Positions 7,175 through 47,245 of a stretch of 64,000 bases of DNA are shown one piece after another. Each line of letters opens with the position of its first letter. The stretch's first letter is position 1. A model generated the notes under the pieces. That model saw only the letters and a program-made list of their open reading frames with translations. It did not search any database and had not been told where the DNA came from. The stretch is from positions 64,001 through 128,000 of the IMG/VR virus record IMGVR_UViG_3300030329_003470. One strand, written 5' to 3'. A program made the translations under genes and the position numbers. The stretch is from a virus.

Positions 7175-7495
7175 ATGTCTGAACGAGATCTAGTCAAAGA
7201 ACTCAAAACCCAAATCGCTGACCTGACTGTAGACAGAGACGAGGCACTAGCGAAAGTCAAAACCAAAGAGGCGAGACTTAAACAAGTTATGATCAAATTA
7301 GAACACGCCACGGGCGATGTACAGAATGTGGGTCATAGAGTTGCGGAAAGAGACAAAGAAATTGCCACACTAAAAGCCAAACTCGAAACCAAAGACAAGT
7401 TGTTACAAGATGCGTTAAAAAAAATTAAGGGCATATATGAAGACTCGACAGAAAAAGAAGAAGATCAAAAAGAAATCTCAGAAGACGAAGAGTAA
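7175..7495 (+). CDS. Coiled-coil hypothetical protein
   Basis: 106 aa with heptad-like K/E/L pattern and an acidic tail. Confidence 0.6.
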   Translation: MSERDLVKELKTQIADLTVDRDEALAKVKTKEARLKQVMIKLEHATGDVQNVGHRVAERDKEIATLKAKLETKDKLLQDALKKIKGIYEDSTEKEEDQKEISEDEE

Positions 7496-7568
7496 GAACA
7501 CTCAACCATTATCACCTGAAACTATCGGCAAACTACTTGCACAGTTAGGACCAATCAAAACCAACTAA
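7437..7568 (+). CDS. Possible 43-aa Lys-rich peptide overlapping the previous gene in the +1 frame
   Basis: MKTRQKKKKIKKKSQKTKSKNTQPLSPETIGKLLAQLGPIKTN; AAGGG upstream of the ATG; ends just before the hairpins at 7572. Confidence 0.3.
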   Translation: MKTRQKKKKIKKKSQKTKSKNTQPLSPETIGKLLAQLGPIKTN

Positions 7569-7569
7569 C

Positions 7570-7980
7570 AAAGATGGTTTACAACCATCTGAAACTCGCT
7601 TACGCTCGTTTCTTTTTTTAACTTAACGCAGTATAAAAAAACTTGAACGCAATTTGCGTCCTATGTGGCAGATGAGCAGTCACAATACGGCTATTTCTAG
7701 CCGTACTGACTTTAACCCATGTGGCGAGTTCGCAGTCACCATACATCGTTACCAAATTGGCCGGGCGGTTGTGCTGTACCCGTTAACTCATACTTCCAAC
7801 GCGAGCCTACTATGCCTTTGTATGATAATTCATAATAGACTTGAGGTTGCTTTTTCTCAGAGCCTCTTCATTTTTGCTGTTTGCATCAAGGGATTCACCT
7901 GTCGCTTGTTAGCCGCATTTCCCTGCTCACTGGTCGAGATGCTATGTTTGCCTGATTGAAATTGTGATGTGCCTATCGCA
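7570..7980 (-). ncRNA. Candidate large structured non-coding RNA, family unassigned
   Basis: About 46% GC over 7681-7980 (hand count 138/300) versus roughly one third in flanking genes. At least 8 helices; GNRA loops (GAAA, GTAA) read only on the minus strand; TTGACC and TATAAACA promoter-like motifs at 8011-7983; hairpin plus U7 at 7660-7635. Confidence 0.62.
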
Positions 7981-8023
7981 TATGTTTATATGAGTTTTCT
8001 TTTAAGGTCAATCTTTTTGGCTT

Positions 8024-8029
8024 TAAATA
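8024..8029 (+). promoter_or_regulatory. Late promoter core TAAATA
   Basis: Ends 5 nt before ATG 8035. Confidence 0.55.
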
Positions 8030-8034
8030 TGATT

Positions 8035-8466
8035 ATGAATTGGCAGTACCAAGGAAAAGACATTGTAGAATTACCAAATGATTGTGTAGGATTTGTTTAT
8101 CAAATAACAAATACAACCAATGGTAGGATGTATATTGGCAAAAAATTAGCAAGATTTAGAAAGTCACGTAGACCTTTAAAGGGCAGAGTTAACAAACGTA
8201 GGTACACTGTGTCCAGTGATTGGCAACATTACTATGGTTCGAGTGATGCTTTAAATGAGGACATTGAAAAATTTGGTAAAGATAATTTTAAAAGAGAAAT
8301 ACTTTTCTACTGCAAATCAAAAGCAGAACTATCATACATTGAAGCCAGAGAACAGTTTGCACGTAAAGTTTTAGAAACTGATGATTATTATAATGGTCAT
8401 ATTCGTGTGCGAATACACGGTTCTGGAATTCTCAGAGAAAAATCTACAAAGGGTATTTTAAAATAG
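8035..8466 (+). CDS. GIY-YIG family endonuclease (Seg-like, stand-alone)
   Basis: GFVYQITNTTNGRMYIGKK (GIY-YIG), YYGSS, FKREIL..C.SK, E..EQF and YYNG motifs; start moved from the track's 7969 to ATG 8035. Confidence 0.8.
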   Translation: MNWQYQGKDIVELPNDCVGFVYQITNTTNGRMYIGKKLARFRKSRRPLKGRVNKRRYTVSSDWQHYYGSSDALNEDIEKFGKDNFKREILFYCKSKAELSYIEAREQFARKVLETDDYYNGHIRVRIHGSGILREKSTKGILK

Positions 8467-14821: not shown

Positions 14822-15120
14822 TGGCAGGCTATTCTCGAACATCACCCTATTTTGAAACACCAATGTCTGCAGACAATCTGGAGATATTAACTCCAAGAAC
14901 AATTACTGTTGAAGATGATGATCAATCATACACAATTGAAAGAACTTACGCATACAGACCAGACCTTTTAGCATATGACTTGTATGGTACTCCAAGATTA
15001 TGGTGGGTTTTTGCTCAACGTAATCCAGATAAAATAGAAGATCCAATTTACGATTTCAAAATAGGAGTAACCATTCAGTTACCAAAGAAAGAATTATTGC
15101 TTAAAGATTTAGGAGTATAA
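14821..15120 (+). CDS. LysM-like baseplate wedge protein (gp53-like)
   Basis: YRPDLLAYDLYGTPRLWWVFAQRN..DP..DF..G..I.LP. Confidence 0.75.
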   Translation: MAGYSRTSPYFETPMSADNLEILTPRTITVEDDDQSYTIERTYAYRPDLLAYDLYGTPRLWWVFAQRNPDKIEDPIYDFKIGVTIQLPKKELLLKDLGV

Positions 15121-15122
15121 TC

Positions 15123-46870: not shown

Positions 46871-46917
46871 TAATACCAAAAAATTTTTATCAGGTCGTTA
46901 AATCGCCATAATTATCG

Positions 46918-46923
46918 TATAAT
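46918..46923 (+). promoter_or_regulatory. Sigma70-like -10 box TATAAT heading the sugar-tailoring operon
   Basis: 6 nt before ATG 46930; CAGGTC 21 nt upstream; no canonical -35. Confidence 0.45.
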
Positions 46924-46929
46924 TGTGGT

Positions 46930-47244
46930 ATGAATATTGGCGAACTAAAACAAAAAGCAGATCTATCTTTCGATATTACAGTCGCAAAGAAAAATGCACT
47001 AGAACGTGCAGAATCAAGACAGATAATTGCATACAACGGACATCTTTTCCGTGCAGACCCGCAAACTATCTGTTTGGTAAAAACTTTAAATGAACAAAAA
47101 GATACTTTCTTTGTACTAGACACAAATAGTAATCCTTGTGAGATAAAAGATCCTGCTGAATTTCTCAACAAACTTATAGAACGGAATCAAGAGACGCTCA
47201 ATGCTTATCACCAAATAAACGAAGAATTCGTAAAAAGGAGATAG
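46930..47244 (+). CDS. Hypothetical protein (possibly DUF4376-like)
   Basis: 104 aa with YNG.LF.AD..T and ...DT.SN pattern; first gene of the operon. Confidence 0.45.
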   Translation: MNIGELKQKADLSFDITVAKKNALERAESRQIIAYNGHLFRADPQTICLVKTLNEQKDTFFVLDTNSNPCEIKDPAEFLNKLIERNQETLNAYHQINEEFVKRR

Positions 47245-47245
47245 T

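What the first reader, a model, noticed from the sequence alone, without database searches (positions are those of the whole stretch)
7570..7980. Unassigned ~340-410-nt highly structured non-coding RNA in a jumbo-type phage
This is the only long non-coding gap in 64 kb, and it is GC-enriched (about 46%). On the minus strand it folds into nested helices: GCATC/GATGC enclosing AGGGA/TCCCT (7942-7883); GAGG/CCTC (7866-7843); a 10-bp GTCTATTATG/CATAGTAGGC stem with 2 G-U pairs (7840-7805); CGTTGG/TTAACG; CGGG/CCCG; TGGTGA/TCGCCA; a perfect TACGGCTA-GAAA-TAGCCGTA (7705-7686); GACGCA/TGCGTT plus U7 (7660-7635); GAAAC-GA-GC-GTAA-GC-GA-GTTTC with tandem G.A pairs and a GNRA loop (7612-7591); and AGATGGTT/AACCATCT (7590-7572). 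GNRA loops and G-U pairs favour the minus strand, and TTGACC and TATAAACA lie just upstream. I could not recognise tRNA, tmRNA, RNase P or group I/II intron hallmarks. It may be a new large phage RNA: ribozyme, packaging/scaffold RNA, decoy against host defence, or guide scaffold (inference).
Basis: partly seen in the sequence, partly recalled or inferred. Interest (0 to 1): 0.85.

Follow-up and report, generated by a model that had tools for sequence, protein, structure and literature searches.

The report
Twin-box structured RNA of marine phages
The gene-free gap holds a real gene for a roughly 400-base, knotted RNA that no RNA catalogue lists and that is common in uncultured marine T4-like phages. 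It carries the same 7-letter word twice, and in most relatives it sits directly in front of a gene for a tRNA-dependent amino-acid transferase, so it may work on tRNA.

Summary
Window 7979-7572 (minus strand) encodes a structured RNA with its own promoter.

A 14-helix model with one pseudoknot is 96.9% paired over 45 sequences. 34 of its 82 pairs show compensatory double changes. G-U pairs outnumber A-C by 404 to 24, which fixes the strand. No open reading frame is conserved, and no Rfam family matches.

The oddest feature is two identical single-stranded 7-mers (GCCACAU at 7725-7719 and 7669-7663). The 6-mers are identical in 141 of 144 homologues, and they changed together at least 11 times on a tree. 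No complement exists inside the RNA.

This scan has already met the family on other DNA, where earlier notes call it the "twin-box RNA".

New here:
- The gene that follows the RNA in most relatives (absent from this phage) folds like ATE1, MprF and FemX, which are aminoacyl-tRNA-dependent transferases.
- 64 of 67 such genes lie downstream of the RNA.
- Every word variant fits R-S-NNN-A-N, whose complement reads like a tRNA anticodon loop.

The GIY-YIG nuclease gene next door looks like a habitual neighbour, not a partner. The function is still unproven, and I could not test expression.

The parts
7572..7979 (-). Twin-box RNA gene. The 5' end is inferred at about 7979-7977, 7 nt after the -10 box. 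The 3' end is either the U-run at 7635 (about 345 nt) or the last conserved hairpin at 7572 (about 407 nt).
   Evidence: Homologous over this whole span in more than 100 contigs. The structure is supported by covariation. The ends were not measured.
7983..8011 (-). Promoter: -35 TTGACC (8011-8006), 15-nt spacer, -10 TATAAA(CA) (7990-7983)
   Evidence: Read from the sequence. Conserved as CCAAAAAGATTGACC..TATAAACA in the main clade; a second clade has TTATATAGTAG instead. The simple sigma-70 scan does not list it because the spacer is 15 nt.
7949..7974 (-). 5' leader with two AGGCA(A/C) motifs (7974-7970 and 7953-7949). Relatives have 2-4 copies and a variable length.
   Evidence: Alignments
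7883..7942 (-). 5' domain: P1 (7942-7938 / 7887-7883) enclosing P2 (7924-7920 / 7893-7889)
   Evidence: helices 1 and 2: 100% and 94.7% paired, 2 double-change pairs each
7842..7871 (-). The AUGA strand (7871-7868) of a long-range helix to UCAU (7675-7672) in box 2, followed by hairpin P3 (7867-7863 / 7846-7842)
   Evidence: Helix 4 has 3 double-change pairs. Helix 3 is 97% paired but nearly invariant, so it is unproven.
7804..7841 (-). Long hairpin P4 (7841-7831 / 7814-7804). Its apical loop (7827-7819) forms the pseudoknot.
   Evidence: helix 5: 9 of 11 pairs show double changes
7737..7745 (-). 3' strand of the pseudoknot (UGUAUGGUG), pairing with 7827-7819 (UAUCAUACA). It is also the start of box 1.
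   Evidence: (9 bp, 4 compensatory pairs), helix 6 (98.5% paired, 4 double-change pairs)
7751..7782 (-). P6 (7782-7778 / 7766-7762) with the near-invariant 11-nt loop ACAGCACAACC, then a short capped hairpin (7761-7759 / 7753-7751)
   Evidence: helices 7 and 8. 55 of 56 RNAs found independently through the neighbouring protein carry the exact 17-mer GGUACAGCACAACCGCC.
7713..7736 (-). Box 1, 3' part: GACUGC, then a hairpin (7731-7726 / 7718-7713) that presents word 1, GCCACAU (7725-7719), in its loop
   Evidence: helix 9. The stem changes between subfamilies (GAACUC/GGGUUC versus GAUAC/GUAUC).
7683..7708 (-). P8: 11-bp hairpin with a GAAA (GNRA) loop
   Evidence: helix 10: 99.2% paired, 4 double-change pairs
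7663..7682 (-). Box 2: GUGACUGC, UCAUCU, then word 2, GCCACAU (7669-7663), in a single-stranded junction
7635..7661 (-). Terminator-like hairpin GGACGCA-AAU-UGCGUUC, followed by U7 (7641-7635)
7572..7612 (-). Two adjacent GUAA-type capped hairpins that are almost invariant in the family: P10 (7612-7591, with tandem G-A pairs) and P11 (7590-7572). On the plus strand, together with T7 (7613-7619), they also read as a terminator for the convergent 106-aa gene.
   Evidence: helices 12-14 (3 + 2 double-change pairs)
8029..8466 (+). Minimal GIY-YIG (SegE-type) nuclease gene, transcribed divergently from the RNA promoter. It is the habitual neighbour.
   Evidence: Pfam PF19835, E = 4e-36. Single copy in the contig. 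Adjacent and divergent in 62 of 72 loci.
7175..7495 (+). Convergent 106-aa coiled-coil gene, the syntenic anchor. In most relatives a 257-aa and a 172-aa gene lie between it and the RNA; here they are missing.

Best explanation
Window 7979-7572 (minus strand) is the gene for a stable, separately transcribed, pseudoknotted non-coding RNA of about 345-410 nt. It belongs to a widespread, uncatalogued family of uncultured marine T4-like phages, which this scan calls the 'twin-box RNA'.

The fold is a multi-helix core with GNRA-capped hairpins and a loop-to-strand pseudoknot. It holds out two identical single-stranded 7-mers: one in a hairpin loop, the other in a junction just before a terminator-like hairpin. 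I read these as two equivalent docking sites. They would let the RNA bind two copies of one outside partner, either a nucleic-acid loop or a sequence-specific protein.

In this phage the RNA acts in trans, because no gene follows it on its strand. In most relatives the same transcript runs on into a gene for an aminoacyl-tRNA-dependent transferase. That makes tRNA the leading candidate for the partner.

Shown: the RNA family, the strand, the fold, the twin-word identity and the gene links. Inferred: transcription, the RNA ends, action in trans, and the partner.
For: 108 loci carry the whole element at 70-96% identity. In bacterial genome bins it occurs only on marine MAG contigs of unrelated phyla, which I take to be mis-binned phage DNA.

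Fold: 82 pairs are 96.9% paired, 34 pairs show double changes and no shuffle out of 500 reached that. Slid controls give about 34% paired and 5-10 double-change pairs. RNAalifold independently found 32 of 67 pairs compensatory.

Strand: 404 G-U cells against 24 A-C cells.

Not coding: only 13 of 78 homologues keep an open frame, and length differences are not multiples of 3.

Twin words: the 6-mers are identical in 141 of 144 sequences. Very different words are still twinned in distant subfamilies: ACAUGAUG, AACGUGAUG, AGAUGAU, AGAUGAG. On a tree built without the word columns there are 11 parsimony changes of each word and 11 of the pair. No complementary segment exists inside the RNA, in the flanks or enriched in the contig.

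Independent gene: it has its own conserved promoter. It is kept where no same-strand gene follows: this window, and 15 loci. It is also kept in two other gene arrangements, the L117 and L041 types.

tRNA link: the 257-aa downstream gene of relatives gives an AlphaFold model with pLDDT 83.6. Its best PDB matches are ATE1, MprF/aminoacyl-PG synthases and FemX (E = 4e-6 to 3e-4). Starting from that protein, 58 of 67 loci have the RNA directly upstream on the same strand and 6 more have it further upstream.
Against: The promoter spacer is 15 nt, which is poor for sigma-70. The RNA ends are inferred.

The partner is unidentified. Identity of the two words could in principle also come from repeated gene conversion between the two 29-nt boxes. 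That would have to spare the differing hexamer that lies directly next to each word.

This phage contig has no transferase gene and no tRNA gene, so any tRNA link here rests on relatives.

The tree behind the count of 11 changes is a quick FastTree of short sequences.
Confidence: 0.6

Rival explanations
1. tRNA-docking RNA (a T-box-like principle, not a T-box). Each word is a codon-like triplet followed by an A. It pairs with the anticodon loop (positions 32-36) of a tRNA, so the RNA would hold two copies of one tRNA species: His in most phages, Tyr, Met or Val in others. It would either feed them to, or sense them for, the co-transcribed aminoacyl-tRNA-dependent transferase. Where that gene is lost, as here, it might shield or sequester the tRNA.
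For: All nine word types fit R-S-NNN-A-N. The A that would face the universal U33 never changes, while the triplet does: CAC, UAC, AUG, GUG. Word 1 sits in a 6-9-nt hairpin loop, which is suited to loop-loop kissing. Real tRNA-His loops fetched here are UUGUGAU and UUGUGGA; against these, ACCACAG pairs at 6 of 7 positions. The downstream gene folds like ATE1, MprF and FemX and is almost always behind the RNA.
Against: Any triplet matches some tRNA, so the fit is weak evidence. The only real constraint is one conserved A. About a fifth of the words have G at position 2, which would face position 37, normally a modified purine. N7 = U (this window) would face U32. The hosts and their tRNAs are unknown. 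The contig has no tRNA genes. No T-box features and no Rfam T-box hit were found. The known transferases of this fold recognise the acceptor arm, not the anticodon (PMC10115844, abstract only, and general knowledge).
Confidence: 0.2
2. Decoy or pseudo-substrate for a sequence-specific host RNA-binding enzyme, for example a dimeric MazF/ToxN-type endoribonuclease or an anticodon nuclease. The two words copy the enzyme's short recognition sequence, so they track the host's enzyme.
For: An outside partner with a 6-7-nt specificity that differs between hosts would explain why both words switch together at least 11 times with no compensating change in the RNA. Most words contain ACA, which is the E. 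coli MazF site (general knowledge).
Against: No host or toxin is known, and nothing was tested. Words in other subfamilies lack ACA. This reading does not explain the tight link to the transferase gene.
Confidence: 0.08
3. Purely cis-acting leader (riboswitch or attenuator) of the downstream transferase gene. The copy in this window would be a remnant left after that gene was lost.
For: In 37 of 54 loci the 257-aa gene starts about 12-14 nt after the last hairpin, with no room for a promoter. A terminator-like hairpin follows word 2.
Against: The RNA is fully conserved, including every helix and both words, in this window and in at least 14 other loci without the gene. It is also conserved in arrangements where the gene is divergent or absent. 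U-run strength does not differ between loci with and without the gene (4.4 versus 4.2).
Confidence: 0.07
4. RNA partner or guide of the adjacent minimal GIY-YIG nuclease.
For: The nuclease gene is single-copy, lacks a DNA-binding domain, and lies next to the RNA in 62 of 72 loci and within the locus in 70 of 72. This holds in both the divergent and the tandem arrangement.
Against: Close homologues (41-61% identity) in the cultured phages Melnitz, phiM12 and S-SRM01 have no comparable non-coding gap beside them. In the L041-type loci the nuclease gene is 2.2-2.7 kb away. No target for the words was found in the contig. Free-standing Seg nucleases are known to settle beside conserved RNA genes, for example T4 segB in the tRNA cluster (general knowledge).
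Confidence: 0.05
5. It is not an RNA at all: either a DNA-level element (replication origin, iterons) or the 101-aa plus-strand ORF 7654-7959.
For: Two 29-nt direct repeats lie 56 nt apart. An ORF spans the gap.
Against: Compensatory changes with many G-U pairs on one strand only. The region is GC-rich, not AT-rich. The ORF is open in only 13 of 78 homologues, has no Pfam hit and starts with TTG.
Confidence: 0.02

Closest known systems
ROOL (RF03087) and GOLLD (RF01998), the large 'ornate' RNAs of phages and prophages (cryo-EM: PMC12286853)
   Same: Large (over 350 nt) and multi-helix, with pseudoknots and GNRA loops. Carried by phages, function unknown, and found by comparative genomics.
   Different: There is no sequence or structure match in Rfam. 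This RNA is smaller. It is not next to tRNA genes here. No covariation suggests self-assembly contacts. The twin identical words have no counterpart in those families, as far as I know.
T-box riboswitch leaders (RF00230)
   Same: A long structured RNA in front of a gene of tRNA/aminoacyl metabolism (in relatives). It has a variable codon-like triplet followed by a conserved purine, and a terminator-like hairpin downstream.
   Different: No Rfam hit. No T-box sequence, Stem I platform or antiterminator was recognised. It has two identical 'specifiers' instead of one. It persists without a downstream gene. It is phage-borne. tRNA binding is untested.
T4 stable RNAs C and D and the tRNA cluster, with the free-standing GIY-YIG gene segB
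   Same: A stable-RNA gene of a T4-type phage with a Seg-type GIY-YIG nuclease gene settled beside it.
   Different: The length and fold are unrelated. The nuclease here is a minimal domain (about 146 aa). It is nearly always present, not sporadic.
Polynucleobacter-1 motif (RF01718; PMC2864571), named as closest by earlier notes of this scan for freshwater relatives
   Same: An aquatic metagenome RNA motif of unknown function.
   Different: No match in this contig even at E <= 10, nor in 11 related loci at E <= 1.
Unnamed candidate structured RNAs mined from IMG/VR (PMC10690425)
   Same: Same data source (IMG/VR intergenic regions) and the same kind of evidence (covariation).
   Different: Those candidates are 29-151 nt long, so at most they could cover fragments of this RNA. 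The supplementary alignments were not available, so overlap could not be checked.

Membership tests
Any Rfam 15 family | Covariance-model score at or above the family's gathering threshold | tested here: not met
   0 hits in the whole window. Only a junk 6A hit at E = 1.8 in 7400-8100. 0 hits in 13 distant loci. Only a snoRNA hit at E = 0.55 in 11 further loci.
Polynucleobacter-1 (RF01718) | Match to the 141-position model (gathering score 37 bits) | tested here: not met
   No match at E <= 10 in the 196.6-kb contig
tRNA / tmRNA | Cloverleaf or tRNA-like domain with a tag reading frame (ARAGORN) | tested here: not met
   0 genes in the window and in the whole contig
T-box riboswitch | Match to the RF00230 model (Stem I, T-box sequence, antiterminator) | tested here: not met
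   No hit at E <= 10
T-box riboswitch | Binds a specific tRNA through specifier-anticodon pairing | not testable with these tools
   There is only a pattern (R-S-NNN-A-N) and the context of a tRNA-dependent transferase gene
Twin-box RNA (this scan's working name, unpublished) | Near-invariant hairpin loop ACAGCACAACC closed by CGGGU/GCCCG | tested here: met
   7782-7762. The 17-mer is exact in the window and in 55 of 56 independently found relatives.
Twin-box RNA (this scan's working name, unpublished) | Two GUGACUGC boxes, each followed after 6 nt by the same 6-7-nt word | tested here: met
   7739-7719 and 7683-7663, word GCCACAU in both; 141 of 144 in the family
Twin-box RNA (this scan's working name, unpublished) | Pseudoknot between the apical loop of the long hairpin and the 5' part of box 1 | tested here: met
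   7827-7819 with 7745-7737; 98.5% paired, 4 double-change pairs
Free-standing Seg-type GIY-YIG homing endonuclease (the neighbouring gene) | GIY-YIG catalytic domain of the SegE type | tested here: met
   PF19835, E = 4.4e-36, covering the full domain
Free-standing Seg-type GIY-YIG homing endonuclease (the neighbouring gene) | Sporadic presence or absence among close relatives, as expected of a mobile gene | tested here: not met
   Present in 70 of 72 loci with room and adjacent in 62. Single copy in the contig.
Aminoacyl-tRNA-dependent transferases with a tandem-GNAT fold (ATE1, MprF, FemX): the 257-aa gene of relatives | Fold similarity | tested here: met
   Foldseek against PDB: 8tzv (human ATE1) E = 4.2e-6; MprF/aminoacyl-PG synthases 2.6e-5 to 1e-4; FemX 1.2e-4. 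TM-scores are only 0.37-0.49.
Aminoacyl-tRNA-dependent transferases with a tandem-GNAT fold (ATE1, MprF, FemX): the 257-aa gene of relatives | Sequence-family membership (Pfam ATE_N/ATE_C, DUF2156, FemAB) | tested here: not met
   No Pfam or PHROG family at E <= 0.01. The profile against PDB sequences gives only noise.

The most novel reading that the evidence does not exclude
The RNA is a phage-made tRNA-docking scaffold. Its two identical codon-plus-A words kiss the anticodon loops of two copies of one tRNA (tRNA-His in most lineages). In the phages that also carry the co-transcribed ATE1/FemX-like transferase, the RNA would choose which aminoacyl-tRNA that enzyme uses. That would be an RNA-templated, ribosome-free use of aminoacyl-tRNA.
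Probability: 0.15. Interest if true: 0.95.

Novelty: categorically new. Interest (0 to 1): 0.78.

Why it matters
Large, intricately folded RNAs with strong covariation are rare, and most that are known do fundamental jobs (ribosome, RNase P, introns, riboswitches). This one is abundant in ocean viral DNA, absent from Rfam, and has a feature I know from no described RNA: two unpaired words that must stay identical while they change.

The link found here gives a concrete, testable lead. An aminoacyl-tRNA-dependent transferase gene sits behind the RNA in 64 of 67 cases, which suggests tRNA binding or control of non-ribosomal use of aminoacyl-tRNA during infection.

Even if that lead fails, the family is a well-defined target for probing, cryo-EM and metatranscriptome mapping.

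It is not new to this scan. At least a dozen earlier notes describe the same family on other DNA, so this window adds a member that lacks the transferase gene, not a first sighting.

Tried and rejected
- **Rfam**: searched at gathering score and at permissive E-values, on the window and on 24 related loci. Nothing. RF01718, named by earlier notes, gave no match.
- **Cultured phages**: blastn of the region against 50,697 phage records found no match, so no cultured phage is known to carry it.
- **Twin-box pattern scan**: scanning IMG/VR for the twin-box pattern alone gave 26 single hits, consistent with chance.
- **Coding**: the plus-strand 101-aa ORF is rejected.
- **16S mimic**: I considered mimicry of the 16S rRNA decoding site, because the invariant loop looks a little like GUACACACCGCCCGU. 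Local alignment to E. coli 16S scores no better than shuffles.
- **Partner for the words**: no partner inside the RNA, in the flanking genes, or as an enriched or inverted-repeat site in the contig.
- **Second pseudoknot**: a pairing of the invariant loop (CACAA) with box 2 (UUGUG) cannot be tested, because the loop never varies, and box-2 variants would break it. An alternative pairing of 7946-7942 with 7685-7681 gave mixed support.
- **Regulated terminator**: U-run strength is the same with and without the downstream gene.
- **tRNA genes near the RNA**: none in 126 loci.
- **257-aa protein**: its profile against PDB sequences returned only noise.
- **Prior publication**: the supplementary files of PMC10690425 were not available to check for overlap.
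Full report
**What is there.** The window is bases 64001-128000 of a 196.6-kb IMG/VR contig of an uncultured T4-type phage. Its markers include a T4 baseplate protein, a Rad50-like gp46 and a SegE-type GIY-YIG nuclease. The best cultured match of gp46 is Pseudomonas phage PA5oct at 48% identity.

Between the convergent 106-aa gene (7175-7495, +) and the GIY-YIG gene (true start probably ATG 8029, +) lies about 530 nt without a credible gene. GC there is 0.44-0.46, against 0.34 for the window.

A 101-aa TTG-started ORF on the plus strand spans the gap. It has no family and stays open in only 13 of 78 homologues, and length differences are spread over all three residues mod 3. It is not a gene.

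**It is a conserved element.** Using the 106-aa gene as an anchor I found 8 related contigs. Six of them carry the element at 78-86% identity.

A 17-mer from its core (GGTACAGCACAACCGCC) then hit at least 118 IMG/VR contigs and at least 120 metagenome contigs (GOS, Tara and others). 108 viral loci align over most of the element at 70-96% identity.

In 596 Gb of bacterial and archaeal genomes, the 87 hits of the 17-mer are close to the number I estimate for chance. Only five loci really hold the element (a sixth hit was a 21-nt chance match). All five are contigs of MAGs, and the three whose titles I read (Neomarinimicrobiota, Pacearchaeota and an unclassified archaeon) are marine and of unrelated phyla. 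I read these as mis-binned phage DNA.

The near-invariance of the 17-mer is not an artefact of how I searched. Among 56 RNAs found independently through a neighbouring protein, 55 carry it exactly. No cultured phage record matches.

**It is a structured RNA, read from the minus strand.** RNAalifold on 45 sequences gave 67 pairs, 32 of them with compensatory double changes. I added helices found by an exhaustive stack search and tested a 14-helix, 82-pair model:
- 96.9% of 3671 cells are paired.
- 34 pairs show double changes, and no shuffle out of 500 reached that.
- Partners slid by 1-3 columns give about 34% paired and 5-10 such pairs.

One helix is a pseudoknot. The apical loop of the long hairpin (7827-7819) pairs with 7745-7737 over 9 bp, 4 of them compensatory.

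G-U cells outnumber A-C cells 404 to 24. The model is therefore 96.9% paired on the minus strand but would be 86.5% paired on the plus strand.

TGGTGA/TCGCCA is wrong, because its 5' arm belongs to the pseudoknot. Only four pairs of CGTTGG/TTAACG are conserved, and they clash with a covarying helix.

No Rfam family matches, at gathering score or at permissive E-values, in the window or in 24 related loci. The Polynucleobacter-1 motif, which earlier notes of this scan named for freshwater relatives, does not match either. There is no tRNA or tmRNA.

**Gene anatomy.** A promoter-like TTGACC, 15-nt spacer and TATAAACA (8011-7983) is conserved in the main clade. A second clade has a different upstream box.

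From 5' to 3' the RNA has:
- a variable leader with repeated AGGCA motifs;
- a two-helix 5' domain;
- a multi-helix core, closed by a nearly invariant long-range AUGA/UCAU helix;
- a terminator-like hairpin with U7 (7661-7635);
- a variable linker;
- two almost invariant GUAA-type capped hairpins (7612-7572).

Because those last hairpins are conserved even at 70% overall identity, and show covariation, I count them as part of the RNA. On the plus strand they would also terminate the convergent gene.

**The twin words.** Two 29-nt direct repeats lie 56 nt apart. Each consists of (U)GUGACUGC, a hexamer that differs between the two (GAACUC versus UCAUCU), and then the same word, GCCACAU in this window (7725-7719 and 7669-7663).

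Across 144 homologues the two 6-mers are identical in 141. The counts are ACCACA 91, GCCACA 21, AGCACA 20, AGUACA 8 and ACUACA 1. Two further rows are an alignment shift of the identical AACGUGAUG word, and one sequence has a single mismatch. Distant subfamilies have quite different words that are still identical in both boxes: ACAUGAUG, AACGUGAUG, AGAUGAU, AGAUGAG.

On a tree built without the word columns, each word changes at least 11 times and the pair also changes 11 times, so the two always change together.

Word 1 sits in the loop of a hairpin whose stem itself covaries. Word 2 sits in a junction just before the terminator-like hairpin.

I found no complementary segment inside the RNA, even allowing G-U pairs and searching the poorly aligned parts. 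There is none at a fixed place in the flanks, and no enrichment or inverted repeat in the contig.

This confirms, on new DNA, what earlier notes of this scan reported. The simplest reading is two equivalent docking sites for one outside partner.

**Neighbours.** The minimal GIY-YIG gene is single-copy in the contig. It is adjacent and divergent in 62 of 72 loci with room, and present somewhere in the locus in 70 of 72. In one subfamily it lies upstream on the same strand.

However, homologues at 41-61% identity in the cultured phages Melnitz, phiM12 and S-SRM01 have no comparable gap beside them. In another subfamily the gene is 2-3 kb away. I agree with the earlier notes that it is a habitual neighbour, possibly a settled homing gene as segB is in the T4 tRNA cluster, and not an RNA-guided partner.

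**The new lead.** In 37 of 54 loci a 257-aa gene starts about a dozen bases after the last hairpin on the RNA's strand. In the L041-type subfamily a 28%-identical homologue is divergent from the RNA instead.

Searching from the protein side, I looked at the 80 best of 366 relatives. 58 of the 67 with room have the RNA directly upstream, 6 more have it further upstream, and 3 have none.

The protein has no Pfam or PHROG family. Its AlphaFold model (pLDDT 83.6) matches ATE1, MprF/aminoacyl-phosphatidylglycerol synthases and FemX best (E = 4e-6 to 3e-4). All of these take an amino acid from an aminoacyl-tRNA. The TM-scores are modest (0.37-0.49), so this is a fold-level assignment, not a family membership.

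The gene is absent from this window and from the whole contig. The RNA here directly abuts the 106-aa gene, as in at least 14 other loci.

**A hypothesis, not a finding.** All word types fit R-S-NNN-A-N:
- AC-CAC-A-G, GC-CAC-A-U, AG-CAC-A-U
- AG-UAC-A-G, AC-UAC-A-A
- AC-AUG-A-U, AC-GUG-A-U
- AG-AUG-A-U/G

The complement reads N-U-[GUG, GUA, CAU or CAC]-S-Y, which is the layout of an anticodon loop with its universal U33.

Real tRNA-His loops that I fetched are UUGUGAU (E. coli and three marine genomes) and UUGUGGA (one alphaproteobacterium). Against these, ACCACAG pairs at 6 of 7 positions.

Together with the transferase gene, this suggests an RNA that docks two tRNAs by their anticodon loops. 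The caveats are serious:
- Any triplet matches some tRNA.
- Position 2 of the word is G in a fifth of the sequences and would face a purine at position 37.
- The hosts are unknown.
- Enzymes of this fold recognise the acceptor arm.

I put this reading at 0.15-0.2.

**Rejected or weak rivals.**
- Cis-only leader: the RNA is kept intact without a downstream gene, and the terminator is no weaker when the gene is present.
- Nuclease guide: see the neighbours section above.
- Toxin decoy: possible but untested.
- 16S decoding-site mimic: alignment is no better than shuffles.
- DNA-level origin or coding region: refuted by one-strand covariation.

**Novelty.** Nothing in Rfam 15 or in the papers I could search describes this RNA. 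A 2023 survey of IMG/VR intergenic regions lists 8,495 unnamed candidates of 29-151 nt, which might include fragments of it. I could not check its supplementary files.

Within this scan the family has been noted at least a dozen times on other genomes. This window is a further member, notable for lacking the transferase cassette.

Noticed in passing
L087:4971-5741 (and 44 other loci; alignment A3): A 257-aa protein of no Pfam or PHROG family. It follows the RNA in most relatives and folds like the aminoacyl-tRNA-dependent transferases ATE1, MprF and FemX. A 172-aa gene (weak DUF6875 and phrog_28122 hits) always accompanies it on the opposite strand. Both are missing from this window.
   Followed up: yes
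window 7613-7662 and the same linker in relatives: The 3' part of the RNA holds 3-4 copies of GCGUAAG. Two of them are the GUAA loops of the last two hairpins; the others lie in the variable linker. This could be a repeated protein site or extra mini-hairpins.
   Followed up: no
window 7949-7974; relatives in alignment A2, columns 40-105: The 5' leader repeats AGGCA(A/C) 2-4 times. Its length varies, and a second clade has an extra hairpin (GAAGG..CCUUC) and a different promoter box (TTATATAGTAG).
   Followed up: no
L117:10276-10704, L082, L147, L091, L058: A distant subfamily in which the RNA lies directly behind the GIY-YIG gene on the same strand. It shares the invariant loop and the last GUAA hairpin, and carries a different twin word (GGUAAUA).
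   Followed up: partly
L087:3209-4081 and L155, L134: In some relatives a radical-SAM gene (phrog_21308) sits beside the GIY-YIG gene, or between it and the RNA.
   Followed up: no
window 14822-15122 and 46871-47245: Two further stretches of 300-375 nt without an ORF of at least 110 aa. Their GC is ordinary (0.33-0.35). I did not examine them.
   Followed up: no
window 7572-7619: The RNA's last two hairpins, together with the T7 run, read on the plus strand as an intrinsic terminator for the convergent 106-aa gene. The same sequence may therefore serve both strands in this phage.
   Followed up: partly
whole contig G000 (196,581 bases): ARAGORN finds no tRNA or tmRNA gene in 196.6 kb of a T4-type phage that CheckV rates as only 55% complete.
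   Followed up: partly
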